From a virus, in the IMG/VR virus record IMGVR_UViG_3300029319_009270, positions 1 through 64,000 of that record: a stretch of 64,000 nt of DNA, one strand, 5' to 3'. The stretch's first letter is position 1. Every line of letters begins with the position of its first letter. The notes under the pieces are model-generated. The model had not been told where the DNA came from. It ran no database searches and worked only from the letters and a program-made list of their open reading frames with translations. This document shows positions 10,543-63,679 of the stretch, in pieces. The position numbers were made by a program, and so were the translations under genes.

Positions 10543-10839
10543 TTATTGATTCGACAATCTTTTTGCAGCTTTAATGTATCCCAGTGCTTGATCAAGTGAT
10601 GCTGACTGTTGTTTTATTTCTTTAACATTTCTCGCAATTCCAGCAGAACGTTCTTCGATGTTAGCTAATCTTGAAAGCGGAGCATCTATTCCTCGTGCTT
10701 CTAATTCATTAACTGACACGTCTATCATCTCCTTTAGCGTCATTAGTTGCGATTTGAGATTGACCATGGTCGACTCAACACGCCCCCTTGTGTGGCTAAG
10801 TTCTTCTGCGATTTGCATTATTTTATCTAAGTGATCCAT
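10543..10839 (-). CDS. Coiled-coil hypothetical protein
   Basis: Heptad-rich 98 aa ORF. Confidence 0.6.
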   Translation of the reverse strand: MDHLDKIMQIAEELSHTRGRVESTMVNLKSQLMTLKEMIDVSVNELEARGIDAPLSRLANIEERSAGIARNVKEIKQQSASLDQALGYIKAAKRLSNQ

Positions 10840-10899
10840 ACTTGCGCCTATATTTGTAATTGTTTTGTTGTATTATATACAATACGTTCAGAGGTGTTT

Positions 10900-27895: not shown

Positions 27896-29485
27896 TTAGA
27901 AACTTTCTGTTTCTTTTGAAATTTCTTCCACCATTGCGCATTCTGATGTTAGGAGCAATGTTGCAGCTGAACATGCATTTTGGATCGCGCAACGAACAAC
28001 TTTAACAGGATCAACAACACCTAAGTCAAACATATCTCCAAATTCTTCTTTTCTAGCATCATACCCATAAGACACATGATTTTTTTCCGCAATTTTTTCT
28101 ATAACCATATCAGGAGATCTACCTGTATTTTTAACTATTTGTTTTATCGGGGATAAACATGCTTGCTTTACGATTGAATATCCTGGATCATCTGTGATGT
28201 CACTAGAGCTTATATTATGTGATGCTCTAACTAAAGCGACGCCACCACCTGGAACAATTCCTTCCTGCAAAGCAGCACGTGTTGCATGCAAAGCGTCATC
28301 TACCCTGTCTCGTCTTTCAATCATCTCAGCTTCTGTGCTAGCTCCAACTCGTAATAATGCAACTCCACCGTTTAGCTGATGTGCTCTATATTTTAATGTT
28401 TCATACTCGTTTGTTTCCAAATCAGGTGATTCCATTCTTTGCTTAATACTTTCTAATCTTTCTTTGACGCGTTCATCAACAGACTTGTTAGCAACAAATA
28501 ACGTTGAAGATCTCTTAACAATTACTTTCTTGCAAGTCCCAAGATCATCAACAGTAAAATCATCAATAGAGTTTGAATTGTCAAATACTTTTGCTCCAGT
28601 TAGACATGCTAGGTCATGAAGCATGTCGTACCTAGCACTTCCAAAACCAGGAGACTTAATTGCACAAACTTTTAAATTACCTTTGACTCTGTTAACTACC
28701 AACCCTTGAAGCGCTTCATTGTCAATATCATTTGCAACAACGAGTATAGGCTTCCCAGTTTCCAGCACTGATTCTAGAGGCTTAATGATATCCTTCATTG
28801 TATCTAACTTTTTATTGCATAAAAATACAAAACAATTTTCTAGGAGCGCATGCATCTTATCTTGGTCAGTGATAAAGTATGGGGACAAATATCCTCTATT
28901 TAATTGTACACCTTCCACGATTGTAAGCTCGCTTTTGTAACCTTTGGCTTCTTCGACCAAGACACTCCCGTCAACACCAACCCTAGATATTGCGTTAGTT
29001 ATTAGTTCAGCAATTTCTTCCTCTCCATTAGAAGATATTAGCGCAATCTGTTTAAGCGACTGCTTATTTTCTATAGGCTTGGCTGATTCTTTTAACTGAT
29101 CAACAATATCACTAACAGCACTTTCCATACTTTTTCTCAGTAATACTGAATCTTGTCCTGATGATATCATTCTCAAACCTTGCTCATATAAAGCTTGAGT
29201 CAACACTGTCGCAGTTGTCGTTCCATCTCCTGCTTCCTCAGCAGATCTAGAAGCTGCTTCTTTAACAACTTGAACGCCTAAGTTTTGAAACTGATTTGAA
29301 AGATTAATTGCTTTTGCAACTGTAACACCATCTTTTGTAACAATTGGATGTTGACCAGGTCTTTCAATTAGAACTGTCTTGCCACGTGGTCCCATTGTTG
29401 TTCTAACTGCACTGGCTAATATATCAACACCTTGTCGAATACTTTCCCTTACCTCATGGTCAAATTTAACTACTTTTCTTGTCAT
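27896..29485 (-). CDS. groEL: Group I chaperonin
   Basis: TMGPRG, TKDGVTVAK, AGDGTTTATVL, RGYLSPYF, GIVPGGG; no GGM tail. Confidence 0.95.
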   Translation of the reverse strand: MTRKVVKFDHEVRESIRQGVDILASAVRTTMGPRGKTVLIERPGQHPIVTKDGVTVAKAINLSNQFQNLGVQVVKEAASRSAEEAGDGTTTATVLTQALYEQGLRMISSGQDSVLLRKSMESAVSDIVDQLKESAKPIENKQSLKQIALISSNGEEEIAELITNAISRVGVDGSVLVEEAKGYKSELTIVEGVQLNRGYLSPYFITDQDKMHALLENCFVFLCNKKLDTMKDIIKPLESVLETGKPILVVANDIDNEALQGLVVNRVKGNLKVCAIKSPGFGSARYDMLHDLACLTGAKVFDNSNSIDDFTVDDLGTCKKVIVKRSSTLFVANKSVDERVKERLESIKQRMESPDLETNEYETLKYRAHQLNGGVALLRVGASTEAEMIERRDRVDDALHATRAALQEGIVPGGGVALVRASHNISSSDITDDPGYSIVKQACLSPIKQIVKNTGRSPDMVIEKIAEKNHVSYGYDARKEEFGDMFDLGVVDPVKVVRCAIQNACSAATLLLTSECAMVEEISKETESF

Positions 29486-40580: not shown

Positions 40581-41273
40581 TTAACCTCTAATAACAGCCA
40601 AAATTCTATCTGCTCTTTCAATTCTTTTTTCTATTACATTCCAATTTAGTTCTTTCATCATAGCTGTCGTGTACAACTTTACATCTTTAAGGTAATCCCT
40701 ATAATAAGCATGTTGCCAAACATCCATTACGATCACCGGATAAAATCCAGCAGGAACTTGCTGAGAATGCAAGTCTATAACACAGTTCATGTATTTTTGT
40801 GTGTATGTATTTAAATATGTAACTGCCCAACCACATCTAGCAGCAGAACAGCATGCGATAAAATCTCTTTGCCAGTCATCAAAAGAACCAAAGTCCCTCT
40901 GCAACCTCATAAAAGAAAGAGAATCCATCGTTATTTCAGAATTAACATCGCTTATGTTTGCAAAATATAATTCATGGAGGTAAGCAGCATTCATATTGTA
41001 AGTCTCATCAATTTTTAATTGACGATAATCAGAATGATTTGAATTAGATTTTGATCGATCAACAGTGTCTAACTTTGCACTAATCTCATTAAAATCTTTA
41101 AGATACTGCTGATACAGTTTTTTGTGATTTTCTTTATTCTTGTTACTAAGAAATTCTGTGTTTAACTTAAATTGTTTTTCTTGAGCAATTAGCGCTTCAT
41201 CTATTCTATCTTCTTTCAATCCTAAGTTGTCTTTAATTAAAGATTTCACTTCATTATTTAACAAGTAATCCAT
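40581..41273 (-). CDS. Fe/Mn superoxide dismutase-family protein with an N-terminal extension
   Basis: H..LY..Y, LHELYF.N, DFGSF..W, GWA, DVWQHAYY.DY. Confidence 0.8.
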   Translation of the reverse strand: MDYLLNNEVKSLIKDNLGLKEDRIDEALIAQEKQFKLNTEFLSNKNKENHKKLYQQYLKDFNEISAKLDTVDRSKSNSNHSDYRQLKIDETYNMNAAYLHELYFANISDVNSEITMDSLSFMRLQRDFGSFDDWQRDFIACCSAARCGWAVTYLNTYTQKYMNCVIDLHSQQVPAGFYPVIVMDVWQHAYYRDYLKDVKLYTTAMMKELNWNVIEKRIERADRILAVIRG

Positions 41274-41980: not shown

Positions 41981-42832
41981 TTATTCATCCTCTTCTTGAA
42001 TGTCAGAAAATATTTCATCAACATGTTTATCCTTGCTAATTCTAAAACCCGCTGCTTTTCTATGACCCCCGCCTCCAAATTCTTTGGCAATCTCAGAAAC
42101 ATCAATTGTATCATGAAACGATCTTAAACTGACTAGGGTAGTTTTTGCATCGTGGTCGTAATACCAAATTGTTGCAAAATCACAATCAGGAGAAAGTTTA
42201 GCGCCTATTTCTGACATCCAATGTGAAGCATTAACAACATATGTTTTCATACCTTTGTACTCTTTTAAAGTTGCTTTTTCACATATCTTTTTAATAACTG
42301 TCTTTGAATACGCTAATATATAGCTACCTCTTTTAACAGCGTCATCAAAGACAGAATCATCTTCAAATTTTTCAAACTCTTCAAATTCAAACGGAACCAT
42401 GTCAAAAGCTGCACTAAATTCTTTTGAATAAGGTAATTCCCATTTCCACAGATCTCTGTCCATAATGTACTGAATAAACTTAGGTGGTTCCTTTCCTGGA
42501 TGAAACCACTCCCAAGATAACATCGCACCACTTTTGGTCATGTCAAAATGTGTATTACTAATATCGTGTAATTCAACCATAGCAGATTTATGATGATCAA
42601 TAACTAATAAATTATTAGAGTCTTCTATCATCTTTTTTGTTGTTGCGTTATTAAAAGAAAAATCTAATATTACAACATTCTTATTTTTAACATCTGGGGG
42701 TTGGGTACCGTGCTTGCACGCGTGATACTCTGCTCTATTACCAAGTAGCTTCCACGCAGAATATGCAGCACCAAAACCGTCTGTACAATGTGCATGATAT
42801 ATTACACAATCTACGCTGTTCGGATCTAACAT
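41981..42832 (-). CDS. DHH/DHHA1 phosphoesterase (nanoRNase-like)
   Basis: YH..C.DG, DF, IDHH, D.DLW, GGGGHRKAAG. Confidence 0.85.
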   Translation of the reverse strand: MLDPNSVDCVIYHAHCTDGFGAAYSAWKLLGNRAEYHACKHGTQPPDVKNKNVVILDFSFNNATTKKMIEDSNNLLVIDHHKSAMVELHDISNTHFDMTKSGAMLSWEWFHPGKEPPKFIQYIMDRDLWKWELPYSKEFSAAFDMVPFEFEEFEKFEDDSVFDDAVKRGSYILAYSKTVIKKICEKATLKEYKGMKTYVVNASHWMSEIGAKLSPDCDFATIWYYDHDAKTTLVSLRSFHDTIDVSEIAKEFGGGGHRKAAGFRISKDKHVDEIFSDIQEEDE

Positions 42833-42846: not shown

Positions 42847-43422
42847 CTAAATGCGCATATAAGTATGGTGTTCCTGACATCTTGGCTCGTAAAGTTCTGA
42901 CCCACCTACTTGAATTTTTTTATTCGCATTACTTAAACTATGTTGTTGTTTTTTGTGTGTATATCTTGCATCTTTCTGGCATATCGGACAAACAGCTTTA
43001 CATTTTACAATTCTTGTACAAAAAGGCATTATTTTTTGTACTTCTTCAAAAGGCTCTCCTAAAAAATTTAAATCAATTGAAGCAATTACTACATCATAAC
43101 CCATTTTAAAAAGATCGATACACTCTTGTGCACTACCTTCTATTAAAAATAACTCATCTATAATTACACAGTCATAAAAGTCTGCGCCTAGATCATGAGA
43201 TTTCATAATCTCTATAATTTCTTTTCCTGTATTAACAAGATGAGCATCAAGCTTATTGAAATTGTGTGTAACTATTTCGCCCTTACCAGAATATCTGTCA
43301 TCCATTTTGGATTTAAAAGCAATCAAATTCTGTTTCCGGTATTCCCTTTTATCAGCTTCCATTAATAACTTTGTTGTCTTCGAACTGAACATTGGCCCAG
43401 TATACAATATCATTTCTGCCAT
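42847..43422 (-). CDS. tdk: Thymidine kinase
   Basis: GPMFSSKTT, DDRY, IDE, C..C, VGGSELYEPRC..H. Confidence 0.9.
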   Translation of the reverse strand: MAEMILYTGPMFSSKTTKLLMEADKREYRKQNLIAFKSKMDDRYSGKGEIVTHNFNKLDAHLVNTGKEIIEIMKSHDLGADFYDCVIIDELFLIEGSAQECIDLFKMGYDVVIASIDLNFLGEPFEEVQKIMPFCTRIVKCKAVCPICQKDARYTHKKQQHSLSNANKKIQVGGSELYEPRCQEHHTYMRI

Positions 43423-44402
43423 TACTTCAAACCCCACCACTTAACTGTTTTTTCTAATCCTTCCCAAAATCTTACTTTAGGCGTGTAACCAAAAGCTTCT
43501 TTTGCTCGAGTTATGTCTGCACATGTATGCATAACATCACCTGGTCGCCATGGTGCAGTATGAACTTTTGATCCGAAGTTATCTATAAAATAAGTTAATA
43601 TCTCTCCATTTGTTACAGAATCGCTACACGCAATATTAAAACATTGACCACGCCATCTTTCTTTTACCTTTGAGGAAAGTATATTTGCATCAACAACATT
43701 ATCAACATAACACATGTCTCTACTTTGAGTTCCATCACCATCCGATCGACAGCTAAGACCGTTTTTAGTAGCATGACACCAAGCAGAAACTGCAGTCGAA
43801 TAAGGGCTGTCTCCATACTGACCCGGCCCAAACACGTTAAAATATCGAAGGCAAACAATATCAGAATCATCATAAAGTGAACCATAAACTTTGGCGATAT
43901 CTTCACACGCAGATTTTTGCCAAGCATAAGGTGACTTAGGCTTTTTGATCGTTGATTCAGGCGTAGGCATAATATCTGCGCCACCATAAACTGACGATGA
44001 TGAAGAAAAAATAATTCTTGTTTTTCCAATTCTTGCTGCATCAAATAATTTAACTGTATTCATTAAGTTGACCTCAGTCGTCTCTGCTGGATTCTCAACT
44101 GAAAAACTTACTCGTGGTACCGCAGCAAGATGAAATATGCAGTCATAATTTCCTAATGCAACTTTTTCTAATATTCCGCTGAAAGCGAAATCACAATGAA
44201 AAAACCTAATAAAATCTCTGCCTGTTTCATCTATGCTGTGCATAATCTGTGCCATTGATTTTCTAATTTTATATTCTTCTAACGAATCAAAATTACCGCT
44301 AGATAAATCATCAACAATGTCAATCGTGTAATTTTCTTCATGTAGCTTCTTAACTAAATTAGAACCTATGAAACCGAAACCACCCGTTACTAAAACTTTC
44401 AA
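43422..44402 (-). CDS. NAD-dependent sugar epimerase/dehydratase
   Basis: TGGFGFIG, HLAA, SSSSVYG, YAWQK, RYFNVFGP. Confidence 0.9.
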   Translation of the reverse strand: MKVLVTGGFGFIGSNLVKKLHEENYTIDIVDDLSSGNFDSLEEYKIRKSMAQIMHSIDETGRDFIRFFHCDFAFSGILEKVALGNYDCIFHLAAVPRVSFSVENPAETTEVNLMNTVKLFDAARIGKTRIIFSSSSSVYGGADIMPTPESTIKKPKSPYAWQKSACEDIAKVYGSLYDDSDIVCLRYFNVFGPGQYGDSPYSTAVSAWCHATKNGLSCRSDGDGTQSRDMCYVDNVVDANILSSKVKERWRGQCFNIACSDSVTNGEILTYFIDNFGSKVHTAPWRPGDVMHTCADITRAKEAFGYTPKVRFWEGLEKTVKWWGLK

Positions 44403-44419: not shown

Positions 44420-45334
44420 CTAAATTATAATATGCGCAGAATTAAAGTTTATTCTTATTCTACATTTCAAATTATTTAATCTTAATTGATTGTATACTTT
44501 ACTACAAAGATAATACAAGAATTGAATATCGTATTTTAAAGTATCTTTTGTATTAGATGATCTAAAAACAAAATTACAGTCAAATATTCTATTTCTTACT
44601 GTGAACTGCCCAAAAGAAATACAAGTATCAGAGCTGTACACAAATCGTCTAGAAGCAGTATTTTCTTTTCTATTATGTTCATTATTCCCATTCAACTCAT
44701 TTTCTATTTTGTTCTGAACTGATTTTAATATGCTTTGATAATAATCTTTTTCGGGCTCGTATTCCAAAACTTTTAAATTAATATCTTTAAAATCGCAGTC
44801 GCTATAATAAGTTAGATTGATATGAGAAGCTTCTAAACTATCATTTGCTGCCGCGAACATATTTACATAACCAGCAACATCTTGAATGCTGATGGCTTCT
44901 ATCGTCATCAACTCTTTAATAACCGGTTCAACGTAAGAAAGCGTATTATCATCTCTAATAACCATCACGTTTGGATACAGTCTTAATTCCTCAGCTGCTT
45001 CTTCAAACAATCTATAAACTTTTTTAAGGGTTGTTATGGTTTGTATATCATCCCCTCTTTTGTTATAACGTCGTTCAATCTCGTCCCACGATGGTAAAAG
45101 TATAATAATACGATTGTTCAAGTTTTTAATTTCTGCATTAAGTCTTTCAACTTCAATAAAAGTATCGCGATCGTAAAGCTTTGCATAAACTAACATTGAC
45201 AAAGCAGATCGATCTTGGATATTCCAACGATACTTAGAAATTTTATGCAGCTGATTATAAAAAGAAGTCTTGCCAGACAAATCAGGGCCTTCTAAAATTA
45301 ACTGACTTGTTGGGAAACAATTTGTTTTATTCAT
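44420..45334 (-). CDS. dNMP-kinase-like domain fused to a truncated thymidylate-synthase-fold domain
   Basis: N-terminal EGPDLSGKT...QDRS; C-terminal SRR...C....QF.VR......FRSS......YD...SAH. Confidence 0.65.
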   Translation of the reverse strand: MNKTNCFPTSQLILEGPDLSGKTSFYNQLHKISKYRWNIQDRSALSMLVYAKLYDRDTFIEVERLNAEIKNLNNRIIILLPSWDEIERRYNKRGDDIQTITTLKKVYRLFEEAAEELRLYPNVMVIRDDNTLSYVEPVIKELMTIEAISIQDVAGYVNMFAAANDSLEASHINLTYYSDCDFKDINLKVLEYEPEKDYYQSILKSVQNKIENELNGNNEHNRKENTASRRFVYSSDTCISFGQFTVRNRIFDCNFVFRSSNTKDTLKYDIQFLYYLCSKVYNQLRLNNLKCRIRINFNSAHIII

Positions 45335-45351
45335 GTTACCTCCTAACACGT

Positions 45352-45408: not shown

Positions 45409-46074
45409 CTAGCTCACGTATTTCAATATTAATTCAGGCACTGAATAATTGAACAACTCAAAATCTTTTTGATACAGATTGTAAAAATATTTTGTAACAT
45501 CTGGCGAATATTCCCAGTCAGGTTGTATATCTTTATTAATTCTGGATTTATTCATGTGAGGTAGTTTTTGATTGCTGATGACGTCTTTGTCATTTAAAAA
45601 CTTTATAACATTTTCAATTTCTTCAAATTTAAAAACTTTTGTTTTATCATCAACAAAATAATGTTGAGGCACCCAGTGATTATCGTCGAAACCCATTCCT
45701 AATTTAGGAACAAGATCTGTAAAAACTGCGTGCATATAATGAATAATCCCATGAGGCGTTATTGAGTTTCTAGTAATCGTGGTTGTCTCTAGCTTTTCGT
45801 AACCTTTAATTACATAAAATATTTCTGACAACATTCTTTCTATGGGATTTCTAACGATCGTAAATGTAAATTCAATGTCTAGATCTGAATTCATTTTATT
45901 ATACACGTCTTTCGTATGATGAGGATGCGCCTTAAAATAGTTTGACTCTTTGGTAAAAAACCTTTTCTCATCTTTTTTCCAACCTGCACTTTGTATTAGT
46001 TTTCTTATAGAAGTACCTCCAGTTTTAGGTATGTGCACAAACTGTATTGTTCTGTTGTCTTTATAGAATATCAT
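45409..46074 (-). CDS. Sulfotransferase (Sulfotransfer_2/Stf0-like)
   Basis: FVHIPKTGGTS (5'-PSB), VRNPIER..S (3'-PB), HWVPQ, Y.KDFELFNY. Confidence 0.8.
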   Translation of the reverse strand: MIFYKDNRTIQFVHIPKTGGTSIRKLIQSAGWKKDEKRFFTKESNYFKAHPHHTKDVYNKMNSDLDIEFTFTIVRNPIERMLSEIFYVIKGYEKLETTTITRNSITPHGIIHYMHAVFTDLVPKLGMGFDDNHWVPQHYFVDDKTKVFKFEEIENVIKFLNDKDVISNQKLPHMNKSRINKDIQPDWEYSPDVTKYFYNLYQKDFELFNYSVPELILKYVS

Positions 46075-49000
46075 ACTACAAGCGGCCTAACTTTTGCTAC
46101 GCTAGTGCTAGCACCCCAGTTTGGATCATTGTGTGCTGTACACAGCCATATCGAGTAAGGTTGCATTTCTCTAGGGGCACCACCCCACATTCTAAGCCAG
46201 CCCGTATTACTTTCATGATCAGTAATTTTAATTCTATAAAATGTTTTCTTATTTTTTGTAGTCTTTTTAATCATCTCAACAACACAATACCAGGCAACAC
46301 CTTTTTCGTTAGACTCCATATTAAGAACTGACTTAACTCCGCTTTTCATGATTTTTTCCATTAATTCTTCGGGAAATGCCAGATCATCTCTTGTCGCAGA
46401 ACACATGTCCTGATACATTTGCAATTTTTCAATACGATTCCAATCATCTTGGTCTTTTGTTTCACTGATCAGTATAGGAAGCAAATCAGGTGCATTTTCT
46501 TTTTTTGCTTTCCTTACAGTCATTCCCCAGCGACTCTTTTTAAGTTTTTCATAATTGTCGATAATAATACTGTGTAACTGCTTGTGATGATCGATAGTAC
46601 CATCCCACATCTCTTCTAAACAATCAAGTGCTTCAACTTTACAAAGAGCAGAAAAACCTGTTTTGTTTAATTTACTATGATACCACTTTCCATCTTCATT
46701 AAATAACATGCTATCAACCGATGTATAAGGTCGGTTAGCCATGATTTCTTTTACAGCATTCTTTCCTAAACCTTTGATTGATGTCAAGGGTGGAATAAAA
46801 GCTTGCTTCTGCTCTGACCACGACCATGCTAGACCTGATTCATTGATGTCAGGTGTTGAAACTTCATAGCCCATTGCTTTAATTTCTGAAATTGCTTTTG
46901 AAAGATTTTTAGGATTGTTATTCTCAGATTCTAGAATAGTTCCTAACCAATCTGTTTCATAGTATGTATGAAGCCATGCAGCATAGTAAGATCCAATTGC
47001 ATATGCCACAGCATGAGACTTATTAAATCCATAAACTGAAAAGAATTCAATTCTTTGCCACAATTCTTCGCTTACATGTTCGGGTACGCCATTAATATCT
47101 TTTGCACCCTTAATAAACTTTTGTTTAGCTGCTTCTCGTTCATCACCTTTTTTACCCATTGTATCAAGAGACTTTTTAACCAACGTCTTTCGAAGCTTAT
47201 CAGATTCAGCAGGTGTAAACCCTCCAAGCTTTTGGGCTAAAATCATGAACTGTTCTTGAAATGTTACGTGCCCAAATGTTGGACCAAGAACCTCCTTGAT
47301 GATTGGGTGAGGATATTCAATCTCACTGGCTCGAGCTTTATCCTTTACATATTTCAAGTGAACATTCGCACGAAGAGGGCCAGGGCGATATATCGCTGTT
47401 AACGCTCCAAGCTCTTCAATAGAAGTAGGTTTAGCGTCCTCGCAGAATCGCCGAGCACCTTCTGCAGTAAACTGGAATACACCTACTTTTCTTCTTTGAT
47501 GATAAACATGTTCCCAAACCTTCATATCATCTTGTTCAACGTAACGACAATTTAAATGATCATCAAACCAATCTCGAATCTCGAGAAACGTTGGTTCTTT
47601 ACCGTTTTCTTTTGTTAAAATACGTTTGATGCAATTTTCTACGTCTTTTAATAACGTAAGGCCAAGAAAGTCAAACTTAATAAATCCGTTATCCTCAAGA
47701 TTACGAAAGTTCATGCCTTCTGTCCAGGGAGTTTGCAACTCACCCCGAACACCAATTATAGGCATACCTCGTGCCAGATCATCAGCTGGTCCAATAATCA
47801 CACCACCTGCATGACGCCCAACTGATCTATTCTGCATAAAGAGAGCTTCGATATGATCCTTTACTTTCGGATATTTTTCCATAAACTCTCGATATTTTTT
47901 TGAATACTGCATACAGTCAGAATGCTTGAGCACAAAAACAGACTTTTCAGTATTTTCATCTCTTGCTTGTGCCATTACCTCATCTTGTAGGGGCCCAGTC
48001 ATTTTGTTAACTTCAGCAAAGTCTATGCCGTAAAATTTAGATATATCCTTTACAAGCGACTTAAGTTTGAGCGTGTTAAAATTAGACACAGGAATGACAG
48101 CCTCATCACCGTAAAGATCTCGAGCGGCGTTAATTAATGCGTCACGATCACCAGCATCAGAATCAATATCAGGCCAGGACGTCCTATGTCTACCTAGAAA
48201 ACGTTCCCAAAGCAAATCATATTTCAAAGGATCAATTTGAGTAATCCCTAGTAAGTAGTTGACAAGAGATCCACCACCGGAGCCTCGTGCAGCACCAAAT
48301 AAGGTGTGATCGGCTGCTTTGTGAAACACTTCATACATTACAAGGAAGTAATTTTCAAATCCAAGAAATTTAATATCTTCAAGTTCGTGTTTAGCTCTTT
48401 CAACGTATTCTTTTTTCGTATGCAAATTTTCTTTAATCATTGCATCTTTGACTTTCTTTGCTAGCTGTTGAAAAGCAGTTTCATTAGGCTTGTTAAAATC
48501 AGGTAGTTTAACACTAGTGTCAATCCAGCAATCATCACATTTTTCCCACGCAATATCATATGTTCTTTCGATTGAATCTTTAACAGTTTGTTCATAACCT
48601 TCATAAGTGTCTTTATATTCATCATAGTGACAAACAAACTCATCCCACATTTGTTGTGCATTTTTAGGATACAATTCACACTTTAAATCTTCAAACTCAG
48701 GCAGTGGTGAAGGATCATTACCCATCCAGCCTAACTTCTTATAAAGCTCTCTTGCTTCCCACTTATCAGGAGAATAGTAATGTGAGTCTGGTGTAGAAAT
48801 ACAATTAATTCCTGTTTGCGCTGAATGGCGCAGCAAATGGTGATTTACAAGGTGTTGTTGTTTCAATCTGTTGAATTGCAGTTCAAGATAAAAATTTTCT
48901 TCACCCACTGCGTCAACAAAGCGATCAGAAAGATACATTAGTTCCTGTTGTATCTCCTCATCAGATTTTTTCATTGCATTTCCTCTCATAATCCTATTAG

Positions 49001-49583
49001 AGTAAATACCTCCTAAACACGCAGTTGAAACATTCAATCCACGCCCATGTTGTTTAAGTAAGTCAAAATCAATCCTTGGGTAACGATAGAATCCTTCTGT
49101 ATAAGCTCTTTTAATTAAAGTAAACAGGTTACCTAATCCTTCACGATTTTGTGCTGTTACAACAAGATGGTACCTTCTTTTCCACTCGTCTTTGCCTACA
49201 ACGACAGTCTTTGTTTCTTCTTCATTTTCAATAACATGCCCGCCTTCTTCTTCTTCTTTTATTGCCTTTTGTTTGGCAGCAGCTCTATCTAACTTTGCTT
49301 GCTCGTAATCTGTTTTCCAGTCACTAAGTGAAGGAACAAAATAAAATTCGCAACCATAAATTTGACGATACTTTATTCCTTTCTTTTGCAGTTTTGTTGC
49401 GTGTTTGTGCGCGTGTGCTAACCCGGAACCGTTGCCGTGATCAGTTAAACCCCAAGCGTCCATTCCATTTTCTATAACAAAATCAATATGATCAGAAGGA
49501 TATCCTAATCCATCAAACACAGAAAAACCTGTGTGTCCGTGTAATCCAACAAATCTTTTAGGGGGCTTTATTAATAAACTCAT
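46071..49583 (-). CDS. dnaE: DNA polymerase III alpha subunit (PHP plus C-family polymerase)
   Basis: LHGHT.FS..DG, TDHG, RGSGGGSLV, PDIDSD, HAGGV, KFDFLGL, YGFNKSHA. Confidence 0.95.
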   Translation of the reverse strand: MSLLIKPPKRFVGLHGHTGFSVFDGLGYPSDHIDFVIENGMDAWGLTDHGNGSGLAHAHKHATKLQKKGIKYRQIYGCEFYFVPSLSDWKTDYEQAKLDRAAAKQKAIKEEEEGGHVIENEEETKTVVVGKDEWKRRYHLVVTAQNREGLGNLFTLIKRAYTEGFYRYPRIDFDLLKQHGRGLNVSTACLGGIYSNRIMRGNAMKKSDEEIQQELMYLSDRFVDAVGEENFYLELQFNRLKQQHLVNHHLLRHSAQTGINCISTPDSHYYSPDKWEARELYKKLGWMGNDPSPLPEFEDLKCELYPKNAQQMWDEFVCHYDEYKDTYEGYEQTVKDSIERTYDIAWEKCDDCWIDTSVKLPDFNKPNETAFQQLAKKVKDAMIKENLHTKKEYVERAKHELEDIKFLGFENYFLVMYEVFHKAADHTLFGAARGSGGGSLVNYLLGITQIDPLKYDLLWERFLGRHRTSWPDIDSDAGDRDALINAARDLYGDEAVIPVSNFNTLKLKSLVKDISKFYGIDFAEVNKMTGPLQDEVMAQARDENTEKSVFVLKHSDCMQYSKKYREFMEKYPKVKDHIEALFMQNRSVGRHAGGVIIGPADDLARGMPIIGVRGELQTPWTEGMNFRNLEDNGFIKFDFLGLTLLKDVENCIKRILTKENGKEPTFLEIRDWFDDHLNCRYVEQDDMKVWEHVYHQRRKVGVFQFTAEGARRFCEDAKPTSIEELGALTAIYRPGPLRANVHLKYVKDKARASEIEYPHPIIKEVLGPTFGHVTFQEQFMILAQKLGGFTPAESDKLRKTLVKKSLDTMGKKGDEREAAKQKFIKGAKDINGVPEHVSEELWQRIEFFSVYGFNKSHAVAYAIGSYYAAWLHTYYETDWLGTILESENNNPKNLSKAISEIKAMGYEVSTPDINESGLAWSWSEQKQAFIPPLTSIKGLGKNAVKEIMANRPYTSVDSMLFNEDGKWYHSKLNKTGFSALCKVEALDCLEEMWDGTIDHHKQLHSIIIDNYEKLKKSRWGMTVRKAKKENAPDLLPILISETKDQDDWNRIEKLQMYQDMCSATRDDLAFPEELMEKIMKSGVKSVLNMESNEKGVAWYCVVEMIKKTTKNKKTFYRIKITDHESNTGWLRMWGGAPREMQPYSIWLCTAHNDPNWGASTSVAKVRPLVV

Positions 49584-49673: not shown

Positions 49674-50669
49674 TTAAATACTAGTCGGTGAGTTTGAAAA
49701 TTTTATTTTTGTAATTGTTGGACACGACTCAGTTATTCTATCAGTAATATAAGTCGTCATTTCTGTCAAAGAATCAAATACTTTATGTTCATTATGATGC
49801 AATTTAAATAATTTAGCTGATTCGATGACATCTGTTTTTGATAAAACAATATGCGTTGTCCCAGTAAAATTAATTGCTTTTATCAGCTTGTTGAGATTGA
49901 GCCAGTTAACCTTTCTTCTTCTACCCGTTGTAACACCAAACTCATGACCAAGATCTGCAATTTTCAGTAATTCAGGATCATTAAGTAAACTTTCAGGAAA
50001 GTCCGGATCAACTCCTGACCTAGTATCATAAACTTTCGCAGCTCCCCATATATTCCTTATCATCTGAATTGGAAATCCTAAGGAGCATGCTCCGTGTGGT
50101 AAGGTTGTACTAGAAGTAACATAAGGATAATTACCAAAATCTACATCCAGCCATATTCCTTGCGCACCTTCACAAAGAACTTTTCCGGAAAGATTCTCAT
50201 CCCACATCATCCAGTAGGGTATAACGTCTTTAGCAAGAACCCCCTTGCGAGCCATTTTATCAGCGTAGCAAGGGGCTATTCCCTTTGATGTGGTTCCAAG
50301 TTTTTTTGCTAACTTTTCCGCATCTTCATCAATGTGAAGTCTGCTTACAATATGCGCTCTGGGTGAAACCTTAACTTTTGATATATCAAAACCGTTTTTC
50401 TCCAAATATCTAATTTCCGCCATAAGTGAATTCTCATGAACAACGCAACCTGGCCCTATGACTGATGTTACACCATGAAAAACACCACTTGGTACTAAAT
50501 GGGTTTTGTATTTTTTACCATCGACAAAAACAGTGTGTCCTGCATTGTTACCACCAGCCCAACGACAAACAAAATCATATTCACCACTACCGGCTAATTC
50601 TGATGTAATTTTTCCTTTTGCCTCATCGCCCCAAGCTAATCCGCAAACAATATCTGCGTATTCAATCAT
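49674..50669 (-). CDS. purA: Adenylosuccinate synthetase (short form)
   Basis: WGDEAKGK, GGNNAGHT, GTT.KGI.P.Y.DK, EGAQG, YPYVTSS, GVTTGRRR. Confidence 0.9.
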   Translation of the reverse strand: MIEYADIVCGLAWGDEAKGKITSELAGSGEYDFVCRWAGGNNAGHTVFVDGKKYKTHLVPSGVFHGVTSVIGPGCVVHENSLMAEIRYLEKNGFDISKVKVSPRAHIVSRLHIDEDAEKLAKKLGTTSKGIAPCYADKMARKGVLAKDVIPYWMMWDENLSGKVLCEGAQGIWLDVDFGNYPYVTSSTTLPHGACSLGFPIQMIRNIWGAAKVYDTRSGVDPDFPESLLNDPELLKIADLGHEFGVTTGRRRKVNWLNLNKLIKAINFTGTTHIVLSKTDVIESAKLFKLHHNEHKVFDSLTEMTTYITDRITESCPTITKIKFSNSPTSI

Positions 50670-55376: not shown

Positions 55377-56462
55377 CTAAACAAATACAGAGTTAAACTG
55401 TTGTGTGCATCTAACGAATGTAGCACATTTGCTCAACTGTTTTAAGGTGGGCGCTCCTACGTAAGTACAAGTAGATCTAACCCCACCTAAAATATCTTTG
55501 ATTGTATTTTTGACTTTTCCTTTATAGGGTATTTCTACTGTCCGACCTTCAGAAGATCGGTATTCTGCCACGCCGCCTGAATGTTTTTGCATTGCAGTAT
55601 CAGAGCTCATACCGTAAAACTGTATGTAGTGTTTTTCTTCATAAACTGGACCTAGCTTATCACCATAAATAGAAAGCTCTATCTCACCTGTTTTAAAACA
55701 CTTAGTTATAATTTCACCACCCCCTTCGTCATGACCGGCCAACATTCCGCCTAACATTACAAAGTCAGCACCGGCTGCAAATGCTTTGGCCACGTCTCCC
55801 GGGCAAGTGCATCCACCATCTGCGATGATATGACCGCCTAAACCGTGCGCTGCATCAGCACATTCAATAACAGCTGAAAGCTGTGGGTATCCAACGCCAG
55901 TTTGAATTCTTGTAGTGCATACAGAACCCGGGCCAATACCAACCTTAACAACATCTGCTCCTGCGAGAATAAGCTCTTGTGTCATGTCTGCAGTGACAAC
56001 ATTACCAGCAATGATGTTGCAATGAGGAAAATCACTTCTGACTAGTTTAACAAAATCAGTAAAGTGTTCTGAGTATCCATTCGCTATATCAATACAAATC
56101 CAACTTAGATTACACGTTGAAATTATTTCTTTTGCTTTCTTGTACTCTTCTACGTTTGTGCCCACACTAATAGCAAGATGATCTGTGTCTATTTGTCCGA
56201 ACTGACCATACCAGTCCTCAGGTGTATTTTGCTTTGTTATGCAGGTAAACATCTCACATAACGCTAGCTCGTGTGCTATATTAAACGTGCCTACCCCGTC
56301 CATGTTCGCAGCCATAATTGGGATCCCAGTCCAGAATTTGCCGCTGTTTCTAAACGTATACTTTCGACGCAAGTCGACTTCTTTCCTAGATCGGAGGATA
56401 CTGCGTTTTGGACGAATTAGTACATCTTTATAATCTAATTTTATTTCTTGTTCAATTCTCAC
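55377..56462 (-). CDS. guaC: GMP reductase (E. coli type)
   Basis: [55 protein letters not shown]. Confidence 0.95.
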
Positions 56463-58432: not shown

Positions 58433-59410
58433 CTAATAATACTGTGTCAAATCTATATTTTTACCTTTTGCTTCTTCAAGATATCTTAAAGGATTGTAAT
58501 TGTCTGTTTTTGTTATGCTTTCAAAAGACATTCTAATACCTGTTTGTAGATCAATCTTTGGTGACCACCCAGATACATTTCTAAACTTCCAAGATGATAG
58601 CATATGATTACCAAGGTAGTCTGTTTTAGAGTGCCATCTGATTACATTCTCAAGGTCTAGATCAGTAACTTGTTGAATCAACTTTACAATCTCACCTGTC
58701 ATCAAAGGAGTTTCAGCTGCAACATTCCAATCCTGGTACCAAAGATTTTGATTTATTGCTGTTAAAACTGCATCGCAATAATCGTTGACATGCATGTAGT
58801 CTTTAATTTTTGAAGGATCCAGGAACATATCAATCTGTGTCTTTCCGTTAATAGCACCATAGATTGATTTTGCAATAAGAGAATTCATATCTCCAATTCC
58901 TCCATAAGCGAATAGAGGTCGAACAATCATCCATTTTTCAACTTGACTTTTAATAATGTCCTCTGCACAGAGTTTTTGACAGCCATATAAAGTGTGTGGG
59001 CCTCTATCTGATCTTTCTTCAATTTGCTTGCTTTGGTAGTTCTTTGTATCATATATCACTGTCGTACCCATGTAGCAGACAGGTATGTCTAGCTTTCTTG
59101 CAGCCCGGCAAATTGTATACGTACCTTCAACGTTGGTTAAGGTAGATTCTTTAGCATTAAGTGCTACAACGTCTGTACCGACAACTGCAGCATTATGTAT
59201 TATAACATCAATTTTTTCACTTTTGAAAAAGTTTACCCAATGATCAATTGAATTTCCATGAACACAAGGTTCTTTTTTCTCGGACCATTTTGTAAAATAA
59301 TTATCATATTTTGACACGCCTTCATTGACAACTTCTATATCAAATAACTTAGATCTGGCTATTAGATTTCGGCCGATGAAGCCTTTTTCTCCGGTGATGA
59401 ATAATTTCAT
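58433..59410 (-). CDS. NAD-dependent epimerase/dehydratase (extended SDR)
   Basis: TGEKGFIG, HNAA, YGCQK; promoter ATGTAA-N17-TATAAT (59431-59459). Confidence 0.85.
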   Translation of the reverse strand: MKLFITGEKGFIGRNLIARSKLFDIEVVNEGVSKYDNYFTKWSEKKEPCVHGNSIDHWVNFFKSEKIDVIIHNAAVVGTDVVALNAKESTLTNVEGTYTICRAARKLDIPVCYMGTTVIYDTKNYQSKQIEERSDRGPHTLYGCQKLCAEDIIKSQVEKWMIVRPLFAYGGIGDMNSLIAKSIYGAINGKTQIDMFLDPSKIKDYMHVNDYCDAVLTAINQNLWYQDWNVAAETPLMTGEIVKLIQQVTDLDLENVIRWHSKTDYLGNHMLSSWKFRNVSGWSPKIDLQTGIRMSFESITKTDNYNPLRYLEEAKGKNIDLTQYY

Positions 59411-61029: not shown

Positions 61030-61479
61030 TTATTCTATTTCACCTTCATATCTTAATTCAAGCAAACGTTCAGATGCAGTACAATCTTGCAAGTAAGCAT
61101 CTAATTGTTCCAACGAAGTGCATACTGCAATTCCCGATGCTGCTAACATGAGATTAAATTGTGCACCGGGTGGTAAACCATCGCAAAAATAAACAATTGG
61201 CTTTTCTAAACAATTCATATAACCTGCTTCAAAAATCGACCCCATATCTTTGTTTCTTGTATTGCATAGCATCCAGTCACATTCATGAAGATGCCTAATA
61301 TTTCCTGAAAATATTTGATCTTGTATAGACTCATTAGCATCATTATCACAAAGATTTTCATCCTTCGGTGAAAAATAAGAAATGCCGTGTTTTTCAAAAA
61401 CTGATTTAATATTTTCTACTTCTTCCAACCACTCAGGTGAAAACCACCCGCTTGCTAAATAAACTTTTCCTAAACTCAT
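61030..61479 (-). CDS. Nucleoside 2-deoxyribosyltransferase / nucleotide N-glycosidase family protein
   Basis: VYLASGWFS, FSPK, IF..N, DMGSIFEAGY, FNLML. Confidence 0.85.
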   Translation of the reverse strand: MSLGKVYLASGWFSPEWLEEVENIKSVFEKHGISYFSPKDENLCDNDANESIQDQIFSGNIRHLHECDWMLCNTRNKDMGSIFEAGYMNCLEKPIVYFCDGLPPGAQFNLMLAASGIAVCTSLEQLDAYLQDCTASERLLELRYEGEIE

Positions 61480-63453: not shown

Positions 63454-63679
63454 TTTTGACCTCACTAATTTTGCCTCCTGCAATTGCAAAGGCGTCTGTT
63501 AAACAATCAGGCTCTATTTTTTCAAAAAATATTGAGCTATGATCTGATAAGCGAATAATTCCTGATAAAAAATCTTTATTTATATTTGTAATAATACACT
63601 GCAATTCATCCTTATTACAAAAACTAAAAGAATTAATTATTTTATCATTACTAGCAGTCAAAATTAGTTTGTGCATCAA
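63410..63679 (-). CDS. Hypothetical protein
   Basis: Operon packing. Confidence 0.45.
   Translation of the reverse strand: MMHKLILTASNDKIINSFSFCNKDELQCIITNINKDFLSGIIRLSDHSSIFFEKIEPDCLTDAFAIAGGKISEVKNAEKPVQFTSKIQF

What the first reader, a model, noticed from the sequence alone, without database searches (positions are those of the whole stretch)
44420..45334. Kinase fused to a thymidylate-synthase-fold domain with a cytosine-type specificity residue
Seen: a P-loop dNMP-kinase-like N-terminus joined to a short TS-like core that retains SRR, the catalytic-position Cys, QF.VR, RS and the terminal AH, with Asp (LKYD) where dUMP-specific ThyA has Asn. Established: Asp at that position marks dCMP-acting enzymes such as T4 dCMP hydroxymethylase. 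Inference: since dTMP is already supplied by ThyX and TK, this protein may make and phosphorylate a modified pyrimidine nucleotide. The TS domain is truncated and has RSSN for RSxD, so folate-independent chemistry or loss of activity are both possible.
Basis: partly seen in the sequence, partly recalled or inferred. Interest (0 to 1): 0.75.

Follow-up and report, generated by a model that had tools for sequence, protein, structure and literature searches.

The report
Kinase fused to mini dCMP-modifying enzyme
An uncultured marine giant phage encodes one protein that joins a small nucleotide kinase to a stripped-down thymidylate-synthase-type domain built for dCMP, so it probably makes and phosphorylates an altered cytosine nucleotide (5-hydroxy-dCMP is the best guess) for the phage's DNA, but no chemistry has been measured.

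Summary
Window 44420-45334 (-) is a real 304-aa gene: an ATG with an AGGAGG ribosome site, and more than 300 full-length relatives in marine metagenomes.

- **N-terminal domain (residues 1-147).** This is a YorR/thymidylate-kinase-like P-loop kinase with an intact P-loop, DR motif and lid arginines.
- **C-terminal domain (residues 148-304).** This is a confidently modelled thymidylate-synthase (TS) fold (pLDDT 95.5). In a search of 48,161 solved chains only TS-superfamily chains reach Z 8 or more. The nearest is the flavin-dependent dCMP 5-hydroxylase AfhB of phage HY126.
- **Active site.** It keeps SRR, the catalytic Cys, RS, and Asp at the Asn177 position (the dCMP type). It has Asn at the Asp169 position, which a 2026 paper gives as diagnostic for 5-hydroxy-dCMP synthases.
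- **What is missing.** It lacks about 80-100 residues, including the folate-contacting Trp80/Trp83 segment and the C-terminal tail.
- **Context.** Known 5-hydroxycytosine gene clusters carry a separate YorR-like kinase one or two genes from the synthase. Here the two are fused. The gene follows the phage's PolIII alpha gene in about 50 viral contigs.

Cautions: the Asn flips to Asp/Glu about 34 times across the family and co-varies with an acid three residues later. No DNA glycosyltransferase was found, and the product is untested. This scan has already found the same fusion in other genomes.

The parts
44420..45334 (-). Whole gene for the 304-aa kinase::mini-TS fusion protein. The stop codon TAG is at 44420-44422.
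   Evidence: ORF list and translation. 311 homologues at E <= 1e-3, nearly all about 300 aa.
45339..45344 (-). Shine-Dalgarno sequence AGGAGG, 5 nt before the ATG at 45334.
   Evidence: Sequence read.
44894..45334 (-). N-terminal YorR/thymidylate-kinase-like P-loop nucleotide kinase domain (residues 1-147).
   Evidence: VIA: YorR 2axp Z 13.2, TMP kinases Z about 10.5. PDB profile search: YorR E 2.6e-11. PHROG 761 'thymidylate kinase' 1.5e-8. Pfam and TIGR thymidylate-kinase hits fall below their cut-offs.
45266..45289 (-). Walker A / P-loop GPDLSGKT (residues 16-23). It carries the 'EGPD' form shared with YorR and with the 5hoC-cluster kinases.
   Evidence: Invariant E15 G16 P17 D18 G21 K22 in alignment A3. 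Aligned to YorR, RB69 gp45 and Berthold_076.
45209..45214 (-). Asp41-Arg42, a 'DR' motif as in thymidylate kinases.
   Evidence: Invariant in A3 and aligned to the YorR 'DR'. The catalytic role is inferred from general knowledge of TMP kinases.
45050..45070 (-). Lid segment RYNKRGD (residues 89-95) with invariant Arg89, Arg93, Gly94 and Asp95.
   Evidence: Aligns to the YorR 'RLRVRGDE' segment.
44423..44893 (-). C-terminal minimal thymidylate-synthase-fold domain (residues 148-304, 157 aa).
   Evidence: Domain-only AF2 model pLDDT 95.5. Foldseek rank 1-2 is AfhB 9iqu/9iqc (E 6.5e-7), and every other row listed is a thymidylate synthase or T4 dCMP hydroxymethylase. In VIA only 7 chains reach Z >= 8, all of the TS superfamily, with 141 of 157 residues aligned.
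44696..44698 (-). Glu213 at the end of the long helix (ELxGxNE). It is a candidate equivalent of ThyA Glu58.
   Evidence: Conserved in 226/237. The equivalence to Glu58 is an inference from position in the fold, not a residue-level structural alignment.
44645..44653 (-). Ser228-Arg229-Arg230, the equivalent of the ThyA phosphate-binding Arg126/Arg127 pair.
   Evidence: Aligned to the 'SRR' of AfhB, RB69 gp48 and Berthold_078. Arg230 is conserved in 230/237.
44621..44623 (-). Cys238, the equivalent of the catalytic nucleophile (ThyA Cys146, T4 dCH Cys148).
   Evidence: Aligned to the catalytic Cys of T4 dCH and AfhB. Conserved in 230/237.
44552..44563 (-). Arg258-Ser259-Ser260-Asn261, the equivalent of ThyA Arg166-Ser167-Cys168-Asp169. 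Asn261 is the published 'D169N' hydroxylase signature.
   Evidence: Family counts at position 261 are N 159, D 57, E 14, H 4. The signature comes from PMC13326640.
44543..44545 (-). Asp264, an acid three residues after Asn261 that co-varies with it.
   Evidence: With N261, position 264 is D/E in 126/159. With D/E261, position 264 is D/E in only 10/71.
44528..44530 (-). Asp269 at the ThyA Asn177 position, the cytosine (dCMP) specificity residue.
   Evidence: Conserved in 233/237. Aligned to Asp179 of T4 dCH and to the Asp of AfhB. Role as described in PMC13326640.
44432..44434 (-). His301 (SAH), the equivalent of ThyA His207. The protein ends 3 residues later.
   Evidence: Conserved in 230/237. 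Aligned to the 'SAHV' of AfhB and RB69 gp48.

Best explanation
The gene encodes a bifunctional enzyme of phage nucleotide metabolism.

**C-terminal domain.** The 157-residue TS-fold domain is proposed to bind dCMP. The binding residues would be Asp269 at the Asn177 position, the Arg229/Arg230 pair, Arg258/Ser259 and His301. Cys238 would add to C6 of the base, which activates C5 for attack on an electrophile. The most likely reaction is flavin- and O2-dependent 5-hydroxylation, as in AfhB and RB69 gp48, giving 5-hydroxy-dCMP.

**N-terminal domain.** The fused YorR/TMP-kinase-like domain would then phosphorylate the modified monophosphate to the diphosphate. After a last phosphorylation, the phage's own PolIII alpha (the gene just upstream) could use it for phage DNA.

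**What is shown:**
- the two folds
- the retained active-site residues
- the fusion and its conservation
- its fixed place in a nucleotide and replication module

**What is inferred:**
- catalysis
- the substrate
- the hydroxyl product
- the order of the two steps
- incorporation into DNA
For: **Fold.**
- The AF2 models reach pLDDT 92.5 (whole protein) and 95.5 (domain alone).
- Foldseek rank 1-2 is the HY126 dCMP hydroxylase AfhB, with E 1.8e-6 for the whole protein and 6.5e-7 for the domain.
- VIA against 48,161 chains gives 9iqc Z 10.3, ThyA 9.8, MilA 9.3 and T4 dCH 8.0. The next unrelated chain scores 5.5.

**Sequence profiles.** They align the catalytic Cys, RS, Asp and SAH motifs in all three comparisons.
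- T4 dCH: PDB profile E 0.004; hhalign 90.7%.
- RB69 gp48: hhalign 85.8%.
- Berthold_078: hhalign 89%.

**Conservation.** Cys238 is kept in 230/237, Asp269 in 233/237, and the Arg and His residues in about 230/237.

**Published signature (PMC13326640).**
- 5hodCMP synthases are TS homologues with N177D plus D169N.
- They bind a flavin rather than using the usual folate chemistry.
- They were assayed together with a dNMP kinase.

This protein reads RSSN...YD.

**Cluster kinase.**
- The paper's Table 1 lists a YorR/TMP-kinase-like 'nucleotide kinase' among the modification genes of DLP3, RB69 and RL38J1.
- In RB69 and in Acinetobacter phage Berthold I saw that kinase one or two genes from the synthase.
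- The N-domain matches YorR at E 2.6e-11.
- It matches the Berthold cluster kinase at 94.6%.

The fusion therefore joins two parts that are separate genes in the known systems.

**Synteny.** The order PolIII alpha > fusion > SDR sugar enzyme > TK > DHH > dCMP deaminase is kept in about 50 IMG/VR contigs of up to 284 kb.
Against: - **The domain is very small.** At 157 aa it is far shorter than AfhB/gp48 (217-238 aa), T4 dCH (246) or ThyA (264).
- **Cofactor site.**
  - About 55 residues before SRR are missing.
  - The loop before the Cys is missing too. That loop holds the Leu143 position.
  - The C-terminal tail is also gone.
  - Whether any flavin or folate site remains is therefore unknown.
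- **The D169N signature is unstable here.** Position 261 is N in 159, D/E in 71, and changes about 34 times on the family tree.
- **A nearby acid may compensate.** Position 261 co-varies with an acid at +3. With N261, position 264 is D/E in 126/159. With D/E261, it is D/E in only 10/71. A carboxylate may be retained nearby.
- **Sequence profiles do not separate the two dCMP-type clades.** T4 dCH scores as well as gp48.
- **No glycosyltransferase support.**
  - None was found in this 90.5-kb record, although CheckV estimates it as only 37% complete.
  - GT1/GT2 genes occur in only 2 of 4 large relatives, and far from the locus.
- **The genome encodes base-excision glycosylases.** It has Fpg/Nei-type and HhH-GPD-type enzymes. 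From my own knowledge, cellular relatives of these excise 5-hydroxycytosine.
- **No biochemical or base-composition data exist.**
Confidence: 0.55

Rival explanations
1. The TS-fold domain is a folate-dependent dCMP hydroxymethylase or methylase of the T4 gp42 type, fused to its kinase. The product would be 5-hydroxymethyl- or 5-methyl-dCMP rather than 5-hydroxy-dCMP.
For: - The best sequence-profile match in the PDB is T4 dCMP hydroxymethylase 1b49 (E 0.004).
- hhalign to T4 gp42 gives 90.7%, E 1.2e-6, which is marginally better than to RB69 gp48.
- About 30% of the family carries Asp or Glu at the Asp169 position.
- Most of the rest carry an acid three residues later.
Against: - From my knowledge of ThyA, folate is contacted by the Trp80/Trp83 region between helix B and SRR, and by the C-terminal tail. 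The domain lacks both. It ends 3 residues after His301.
- This protein itself has Asn at the Asp169 position.
- Foldseek and VIA rank the flavin enzyme AfhB first, although VIA puts it within 1 Z unit of ThyA.
Confidence: 0.12
2. The mini-TS domain carries out a different, so far undescribed reaction on a pyrimidine nucleotide. It could use another electrophile or cofactor, or a composite site formed with the kinase domain or with a partner protein. In that case the AfhB resemblance reflects only shared ancestry.
For: - The domain is about 60-80 residues smaller than any characterised TS-superfamily enzyme.
- It has its own strongly conserved surface, for which I found no counterpart in the aligned regions of AfhB or T4 dCH: Glu195, Tyr198, Tyr199, Ile202, Lys209, Glu213, Gly216, Asn218 and Arg247.
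- The two domains are modelled in one confident arrangement (pTM 0.87).
- The D169-position residue is not fixed.
Against: - Every retained catalytic and nucleotide-binding residue is the one used for Cys-C6 addition chemistry on dCMP.
- The nearest structure is AfhB.
- The association with a YorR-like kinase is the one seen in 5hoC clusters.
Confidence: 0.18
3. The TS-fold domain no longer catalyses anything. It serves as a dCMP/dUMP-binding, dimerising or regulatory module for the kinase, so the protein is just a pyrimidine dNMP kinase.
For: - The losses of sequence relative to active TS enzymes are large.
- Pfam's thymidylate-synthase model does not detect the domain.
- From general knowledge, TS enzymes dimerise through the central sheet that is retained here.
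Against: - The nucleophilic Cys is kept in 230 of 237 diverse relatives, down to about 25-30% identity.
- The Arg pair, Arg-Ser, Asp and His are kept alongside it.
- A mere binding module would not need the Cys.
Confidence: 0.12

Closest known systems
Flavin/O2-dependent 5-hydroxy-dCMP synthases of phages: HY126 AfhB (PDB 9iqu, 9iqc), RB69 gp48, DLP3 gp80, RL38J1 gp216 (PMC13326640; He et al., Nat Chem Biol 2026, cited there and not readable here)
   Same: - TS fold, and the nearest solved structure.
- SRR, the catalytic Cys, Arg-Ser, Asn at the Asp169 position, Asp at the Asn177 position, and SAH.
- A short C-terminus after the His.
- Partnered with a YorR/TMP-kinase-like nucleotide kinase.
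   Different: - 157 aa against 217-238 aa.
- About 55 residues before SRR are missing, as is the 16-residue loop before the Cys.
- The kinase is fused rather than a separate gene.
- The Asn is not fixed in the family and co-varies with an acid at +3.
- Identity is only 14-18%.
- No arabinose or glycosyltransferase genes lie alongside.
- Flavin binding is unknown.
T4 gp42 dCMP hydroxymethylase (PDB 1b49/1b5d/6l18)
   Same: - TS fold.
- dCMP-type Asp, aligned to Asp179.
- Catalytic Cys, aligned to Cys148.
- Best sequence-profile hit.
- The same logic of a phage-made modified dCMP that a phage dNMP kinase then phosphorylates.
   Different: - T4 gp42 has Asp at the 169 position.
- It uses methylene-tetrahydrofolate.
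- It is 246 aa.
- It is not fused to a kinase.
- Its VIA Z is lower (8.0 against 10.3 for AfhB).
Thymidylate synthase ThyA (Pfam PF00303)
   Same: The core sheet and helices (VIA Z 9.8 with 141 residues aligned). The phosphate-binding Arg residues, the Cys and the His.
   Different: - Asp in place of Asn177.
- Asn in place of Asp169.
- No folate-binding segment and no C-terminal tail.
- No PF00303 match at E <= 1.
- dTMP is supplied here by ThyX and TK instead.
B. subtilis SPbeta prophage protein YorR (PDB 2axp/3kb2) and thymidylate kinases
   Same: - N-domain fold (Z 13.2 to YorR, about 10.5 to TMP kinases).
- The EGPD P-loop, the DR motif and the RGD(E) lid.
   Different: - The PDB entries name YorR only as a hypothetical or uncharacterised protein.
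- The N-domain scores below the Pfam and TIGR thymidylate-kinase cut-offs.
- Here it carries a C-terminal TS-fold domain.
T4 gp1 / RB69 gp159 dNMP kinase
   Same: The proposed role: phosphorylating a phage-made modified dCMP (shown for RB69 gp159 with 5hodCMP in PMC13326640).
   Different: 1dek/1del did not appear among the top 50 structural neighbours. The N-domain belongs with YorR and TMP kinases rather than with gp1.

Membership tests
Thymidylate synthase / dCMP hydroxymethylase superfamily (fold level) | TS alpha/beta fold with the central sheet | tested here: met
   The domain model has pLDDT 95.5. All Foldseek PDB rows listed are TS-superfamily entries. In VIA only 7 chains reach Z >= 8, all TS superfamily, with 141/157 residues aligned; the next chain scores Z 5.5.
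Thymidylate synthase / dCMP hydroxymethylase superfamily (fold level) | Catalytic Cys nucleophile (ThyA Cys146) and phosphate-binding Arg residues (Arg126/127, Arg166, Ser167) | tested here: met
   Cys238, Arg229/230 and Arg258/Ser259 align to the corresponding residues of T4 dCH, AfhB and RB69 gp48. They are conserved in 220-232 of 237 relatives.
Thymidylate synthase ThyA (PF00303), folate-dependent | Folate-binding elements (Trp80/Trp83 segment, Asp169, C-terminal tail) and Asn177 for dUMP | tested here: not met
   Only about 14 residues lie between the long helix and SRR, and the protein ends 3 residues after His301. Position 169 is Asn and position 177 is Asp. There is no PF00303 hit at E <= 1. 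The roles of these residues come from PMC13326640 and from general knowledge of ThyA.
5-hydroxy-dCMP synthase (AfhB / RB69 gp48 type) | Asp at the Asn177 position (dCMP substrate) | tested here: met
   Asp269, conserved in 233/237. It aligns to the Asp of AfhB and gp48.
5-hydroxy-dCMP synthase (AfhB / RB69 gp48 type) | Asn at the Asp169 position (the published diagnostic residue) | tested here: met
   This protein has Asn261 (RSSN). As a property of the family it is inconclusive. Counts are N 159, D/E 71, with about 34 changes on the tree, and the position co-varies with an acid at +3.
5-hydroxy-dCMP synthase (AfhB / RB69 gp48 type) | Acidic residue at the Leu143 position | tested here: inconclusive
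   The loop before the Cys is shortened (7 residues lie between Arg230 and Cys238, against 18 between Arg127 and Cys146 in ThyA by my count), so no safe equivalence can be drawn. An acid two residues before the Cys is common: Asp236 in 150 and Glu in 23 of 237.
5-hydroxy-dCMP synthase (AfhB / RB69 gp48 type) | Binds a flavin and makes 5hodCMP from dCMP and O2 | not testable with these tools
   This needs purified protein, or the in vivo LC-MS assay of PMC13326640. The paper that describes the flavin site (He et al. 2026) is not held in the library.
5-hydroxy-dCMP synthase (AfhB / RB69 gp48 type) | Closest relative by structure or sequence | tested here: inconclusive
   AfhB ranks first in Foldseek and VIA, but the VIA Z of 10.3 is within 1 of ThyA at 9.8. 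hhalign gives T4 gp42 90.7% against gp48 85.8%.
5-hydroxycytosine DNA modification system (RB69/DLP3/RL38J1 type) | The synthase is accompanied by a YorR/TMPK-like nucleotide kinase | tested here: met
   The two are fused in one chain here. They are separate genes in RB69 (p045/p048) and in Berthold (076/078), and the paper's Table 1 lists them for DLP3 and RL38J1. The N-domain matches Berthold_076 at 94.6%.
5-hydroxycytosine DNA modification system (RB69/DLP3/RL38J1 type) | DNA glycosyltransferases and an NDP-sugar supply next to the synthase | tested here: inconclusive
   An SDR NDP-sugar epimerase/dehydratase lies next door in 37 of 50 loci. No GT1, GT2 or T4-type glucosyltransferase was found in this record, which is 37% complete. 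GT1/GT2 genes occur in only 2 of 4 large relatives and far from the locus. The PF09198 search gave no signal even in the controls.
Thymidylate kinase / YorR-like NMP kinases | P-loop, DR motif, lid arginines and kinase fold | tested here: met
   GPDLSGKT, Asp41-Arg42 and Arg89/Arg93 are invariant. YorR gives Z 13.2 and E 2.6e-11.
Thymidylate kinase (PF02223 / TIGR00041) as curated | Score above the curated cut-off | tested here: not met
   PF02223 scores 15.8 bits against a cut-off of 27. TIGR00041 scores 19.4 against 83.25.

The most novel reading that the evidence does not exclude
A cosmopolitan lineage of marine jumbo phages (hundreds of contigs, genomes of about 235-285 kb) may replace cytosine with a modified base. 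The base would be made by the smallest known TS-fold enzyme. That enzyme has shed the usual folate/flavin-binding parts. It would therefore work either through a composite site with its fused kinase or with a cofactor or electrophile not yet seen in this superfamily.

In this particular phage the base might be elaborated further. A sulfotransferase gene has been inserted between PolIII alpha and the fusion, and an SDR sugar enzyme lies next door.
Probability: 0.15. Interest if true: 0.85.

Novelty: new variant of a known kind. Interest (0 to 1): 0.68.

Why it matters
If the prediction holds, modified cytosine is not limited to the cultured phage groups where it is known, such as the T4-like phages and the Rhizobium phages. 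It would also be common in abundant, uncultured ocean jumbo phages.

- **Consequences for ocean viromics.** It would bear on how these phages evade restriction and CRISPR defences. It would also bear on how well their DNA is recovered by sequencing, which is my inference.
- **Evidence for the kinase's role.** The natural fusion indicates that the YorR-like kinase in 5-hydroxycytosine clusters works on the synthase's product. The published work lists that kinase only as a predicted 'nucleotide kinase'.
- **A minimal scaffold.** The 157-residue domain defines a minimal TS scaffold. It could show which parts of the fold are needed for Cys-C6 chemistry, and how the superfamily moved from folate to flavin, a question the authors of PMC13326640 leave open.

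Tried and rejected
- **INPHARED phages.** tblastn of the protein found no match, so no cultured-phage homologue could anchor the function.
- **Direct PDB sequence search.** phmmer with the single sequence gave only a chance hit. Profiles were needed.
- **Pfam and NCBIfam.** They gave only sub-threshold kinase hits and no TS hit.
- **The look-up of encoding contigs.** Synteny was taken from IMG/VR loci instead.
- **He et al. 2026 (flavin site of AfhB).** The paper is not held, so flavin-contact residues could not be mapped.
- **Separating the hydroxylase and hydroxymethylase clades.** hhalign failed to do this: 85.8-90.7% for both.
- **D169N as a clade marker.** Rejected. The residue flips about 34 times on the tree.
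- **Glycosyltransferase searches.** GT2, GT1 and the T4 beta-glucosyltransferase family gave nothing in this record. The T4-family search gave no signal even in the controls.
- **dCTPase link.** The window's NTP-pyrophosphatase::nucleotidase fusion (62533-63489) showed no significant BLASTP similarity to RB69 gp56 dCTPase, so no dCTPase link was established.
- **Sequencing runs.**
  - 20 marine or seawater runs hold part of the stretch, but only as assembled contigs.
  - No RNA holder is listed and there are no raw or long reads.
  - Base-modification signal and expression could not be examined, and read laying was not used.
- **Stand-alone forms of the mini-TS domain.** Nearly all of the 120 listed hits are about 300-aa fusions. 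Most short ones lie on small contigs and are probably fragments.
- **ESM Atlas.** It suggested small viral clusters (144-183 aa, one with PF00303 in 12% of members). This is a lead only.
- **PurZ (2-aminoadenine pathway).** I considered this for the neighbouring short PurA homologue. It scores better against the PurA models than the PurZ model, and below all cut-offs.
Full report
**1. The observation**

The stretch 44420-45334 on the minus strand is one open reading frame of 304 codons plus a stop. The ORF lister starts it at a GTG five codons earlier.

- GPDLSGKT (residues 16-23)
- SRR (228-230)
- Cys238
- QFTVR (243-247)
- RSSN (258-261)
- LKYD, ending in Asp269
- SAH, with His301 three residues from the end

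- a canonical ThyX at 10831-11604 (+)
- a second, divergent ThyX-like gene at 61479-62468
- a thymidine kinase at 42847-43440

**2. It is a real, conserved gene**

A word-indexed search found 311 homologues, almost all about 300 aa and full-length, from marine metagenomes including Tara. An exhaustive HMMER search over 1.84 billion cluster representatives found 243. Searching with the C-terminal domain alone again returned mostly 300-aa fusions. Most of the short hits lie on small contigs and look like fragments.

I aligned 237 distinct full-length sequences, some only 25-30% identical to this one. The proposed active-site residues are nearly invariant:

| Residue | Conserved in |
|---|---|
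| Cys238 | 230/237 |
| Arg230 | 230/237 |
| Arg258 | 232/237 |
| Ser259 | 232/237 |
| Asp269 | 233/237 |
| His301 | 230/237 |

The kinase P-loop, Asp41-Arg42, Arg89 and Arg93 are equally conserved.

**3. The two folds**

AlphaFold2 with a 47-sequence alignment gave mean pLDDT 92.5 and pTM 0.87 for the whole chain. With 37 sequences it gave pLDDT 95.5 for residues 148-304 alone.

*N-terminal domain (1-147).*
- The best structural match is the SPbeta prophage protein YorR (2axp), Z 13.2.
- Thymidylate kinases and deoxynucleoside kinases follow at Z about 10-11.
- A profile of the domain finds YorR at E 2.6e-11. The alignment pairs ILEGPD, DR..S.LVYAK and RGDE.
- Curated thymidylate-kinase models match only below their cut-offs.
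- PHROG 761, 'thymidylate kinase', matches at 1.5e-8.

*C-terminal domain (148-304).*
- Foldseek against the PDB puts the phage HY126 dCMP hydroxylase AfhB (9iqu, 9iqc) first, at E 6.5e-7 and TM 0.66 on the query. Every other row listed is a thymidylate synthase or T4 dCMP hydroxymethylase.
- An independent all-against-all alignment to 48,161 representative chains found only seven with Z of 8 or more, all from the TS superfamily.
  - These include AfhB 10.3, Brucella ThyA 9.8, MilA 9.3 and T4 dCH 8.0.
  - 141 of 157 residues aligned.
  - The best unrelated chain scores 5.5.

**4. Residue mapping**

The profile alignments put Cys238 on the catalytic Cys of T4 dCH and AfhB. They also pair the following:
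- RS with RS
- Asp269 with the dCMP-specifying Asp
- SAH with SAHV (AfhB) or SLHV (T4 dCH)
- SRR with the SRR of AfhB, RB69 gp48 and Berthold_078

Arg258 and Asp269 are 11 residues apart. By my count from general knowledge of the ThyA sequence, Arg166 and Asn177 of E. coli ThyA are also 11 apart.

Compared with full-size enzymes, the domain lacks three parts:
- about 55 residues between the long helix and SRR, which in ThyA include Trp80, Trp83 and Tyr94
- most of the loop before the Cys, which holds the Leu143 position
- everything after the His207 equivalent

AfhB and gp48 also end soon after that His.

**5. What the literature adds**

Lee et al. (NAR 2026, PMC13326640) report the following:
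- RB69 gp48, DLP3 gp80 and other phage TS homologues convert dCMP to 5-hydroxy-dCMP.
- They bind a flavin and use O2.
- They carry N177D plus D169N, and the authors propose D169N as diagnostic.
- Nine further D169N homologues, drawn from metaviromes, distant Straboviridae and Rhizobium phage RL38J1, all produced 5hodC.

The motif RSSN...YD of this protein is exactly that pair of substitutions.

The same paper's Table 1 lists a 'nucleotide kinase' among the modification genes of DLP3, RB69 and RL38J1. Its best structural hits are YorR or thymidylate kinases. I confirmed the layout in two genomes:
- In RB69, p045 is the kinase and p048 the synthase.
- In Acinetobacter phage Berthold, 076 is the kinase and 078 the synthase.

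The N-domain profile matches the Berthold kinase at 94.6%, E 6.8e-8, over 61 columns that include the EGPD P-loop and the DR..LS..VY motif. It matches RB69 gp45 at 93%, but over the P-loop only.

The marine protein thus fuses two components that are separate neighbouring genes in the known 5-hydroxycytosine systems. None of the literature searches turned up a described fusion or minimal form.

**6. Genomic setting**

The window belongs to a 90.5-kb viral record that CheckV rates 37% complete. Relatives reach 235-285 kb, so this is a jumbo-phage lineage.

In about 50 IMG/VR contigs the following gene order is kept:
1. PolIII alpha
2. the fusion
3. an SDR NDP-sugar epimerase/dehydratase
4. thymidine kinase
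5. a DHH phosphoesterase
6. dCMP deaminase
7. superoxide dismutase

The set resembles that of T4 and RB69: deaminase, thymidylate synthase, TK, a dCMP-modifying enzyme and a dNMP kinase.

The sulfotransferase gene at 45409-46074, between PolIII alpha and the fusion, is peculiar to this phage. Weak homologues (30-34% identity) sit elsewhere in the same module in three relatives.

**7. Cautions**

- **(a) The 'diagnostic' Asn is not stable in this family.**
  - Position 261 is Asn in 159, Asp in 57 and Glu in 14 sequences.
  - It changes about 34 times on a maximum-likelihood tree.
  - It co-varies with position 264.
  - With Asn261, position 264 is Asp/Glu in 126 of 159. With Asp/Glu261, it is acidic in only 10 of 71.
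  - A carboxylate is therefore usually kept at one of the two positions. The published signature may not carry the same meaning here.
- **(b) Sequence profiles cannot place the domain nearer to the hydroxylases than to T4 dCMP hydroxymethylase**.
- **(c) The cofactor site is the part that has been trimmed.** I could not read the paper that describes AfhB's flavin contacts.
- **(d) No DNA glycosyltransferase was found in this record.** GT1/GT2 genes are present in only two of four large relatives, and far from the locus. Sugar decoration is therefore unsupported.
- **(e) The same genome encodes an Fpg/Nei-type glycosylase and an HhH-GPD-type glycosylase**. To my knowledge, cellular members of both groups remove 5-hydroxycytosine. 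This would sit awkwardly with unprotected 5hoC in phage DNA.
- **(f) Public sequencing runs hold the region only as contigs.** No modification signal could be examined.

**8. Verdict**

- **Firmly established:** a dNMP/TMP-kinase-like domain fused to a minimal TS-fold domain with a dCMP-type active site, conserved as a core gene of a marine jumbo-phage lineage.
- **Probable (about 0.55):** the protein makes a C5-modified dCMP and phosphorylates it. 5-hydroxy-dCMP is the leading candidate for the product.
- **Rivals:**
  - folate-type hydroxymethylation (0.12)
  - chemistry not yet described (0.18)
  - a non-catalytic nucleotide-binding module (0.12)

It is a new variant of a known kind.

This scan has already met the same fusion in several other genomes, and earlier follow-up agents reached a similar reading. 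Those notes are not independent evidence.
- the instability of position 261
- its co-variation with position 264
- the direct match of the N-domain to the kinase of a known 5-hydroxycytosine cluster

Noticed in passing
window 45409-46074 (-): A PAPS-type carbohydrate sulfotransferase gene (Pfam Sulfotransfer_2, 9.2e-14; PHROG 3347) is inserted between PolIII alpha and the kinase::mini-TS gene. Most relatives lack it at this spot. Three have a 30-34% identical homologue between the DHH and dCMP deaminase genes of the same module.
   Followed up: partly
window 43422-44402 (-) and 58433-59410 (-): Two SDR NDP-sugar epimerase/dehydratase genes. The first lies directly downstream of the fusion and is adjacent in 37 of 50 related loci. 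Its best NCBIfam matches (TviC, GalE) are far below their cut-offs, so the sugar substrate is unknown.
   Followed up: partly
window 61479-62468 (-) and 61030-61479 (-): A divergent 329-aa ThyX-like protein (Pfam Thy1 1.4e-18; TIGR thyX 43 bits against a cut-off of 87.9) lies directly upstream of a nucleoside 2-deoxyribosyltransferase-like gene (PF05014, 3.7e-16). The window has a separate canonical ThyX at 10831-11604 (+).
   Followed up: partly
window 62533-63489 (-) and 63676-64179 (-): A fusion of an all-alpha NTP pyrophosphatase (dUTPase_2) with an NT5C deoxyribonucleotidase domain. The ORF at 63676-64179 just before it (up to 168 codons between stops) was only translated; I ran no family search on it. 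The fusion shows no significant BLASTP similarity to RB69 gp56 dCTPase.
   Followed up: partly
L052 277-1089 (-) and 1635-2069 (-) (genome 64277-65089 and 65635-66069): An Fpg/Nei-family DNA glycosylase and a short HhH-GPD glycosylase are encoded just beyond the window. Cellular relatives act on oxidised pyrimidines, which bears on whether the phage DNA could carry unprotected 5-hydroxycytosine.
   Followed up: no
window 49674-50669 (-): A short (331-aa) adenylosuccinate-synthetase homologue next to a metallophosphoesterase. It scores higher against PurA models (262 bits, cut-off 402) than against the PurZ exception model (113 bits, cut-off 300), so it is not clearly a 2-aminoadenine PurZ. An IMPDH/GMP-reductase gene lies at 55377-56462.
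   Followed up: partly
window 41981-42832 (-): A DHH/DHHA1 phosphoesterase is the most conserved gene of the module (63-83% identity across relatives, higher than the fusion itself). Its role is unknown. From my own knowledge, some DHH proteins are pAp phosphatases or nanoRNases.
   Followed up: no
window 27896-29485 (-), 40581-41273 (-), 46071-49583 (-): The phage encodes a GroEL-type chaperonin, an Fe/Mn superoxide dismutase and a bacterial-type PolIII alpha (1170 aa). The record is estimated at 37% of a genome of roughly 245 kb (my extrapolation).
   Followed up: no
BFVD hits; ESM Atlas clusters: Small stand-alone TS-fold-like proteins may exist in other phages. One example is a 151-aa uncharacterised protein of Synechococcus phage S-CBWM1 (TM 0.50 on the target). 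Atlas clusters of 144-183 aa are another lead.
   Followed up: no
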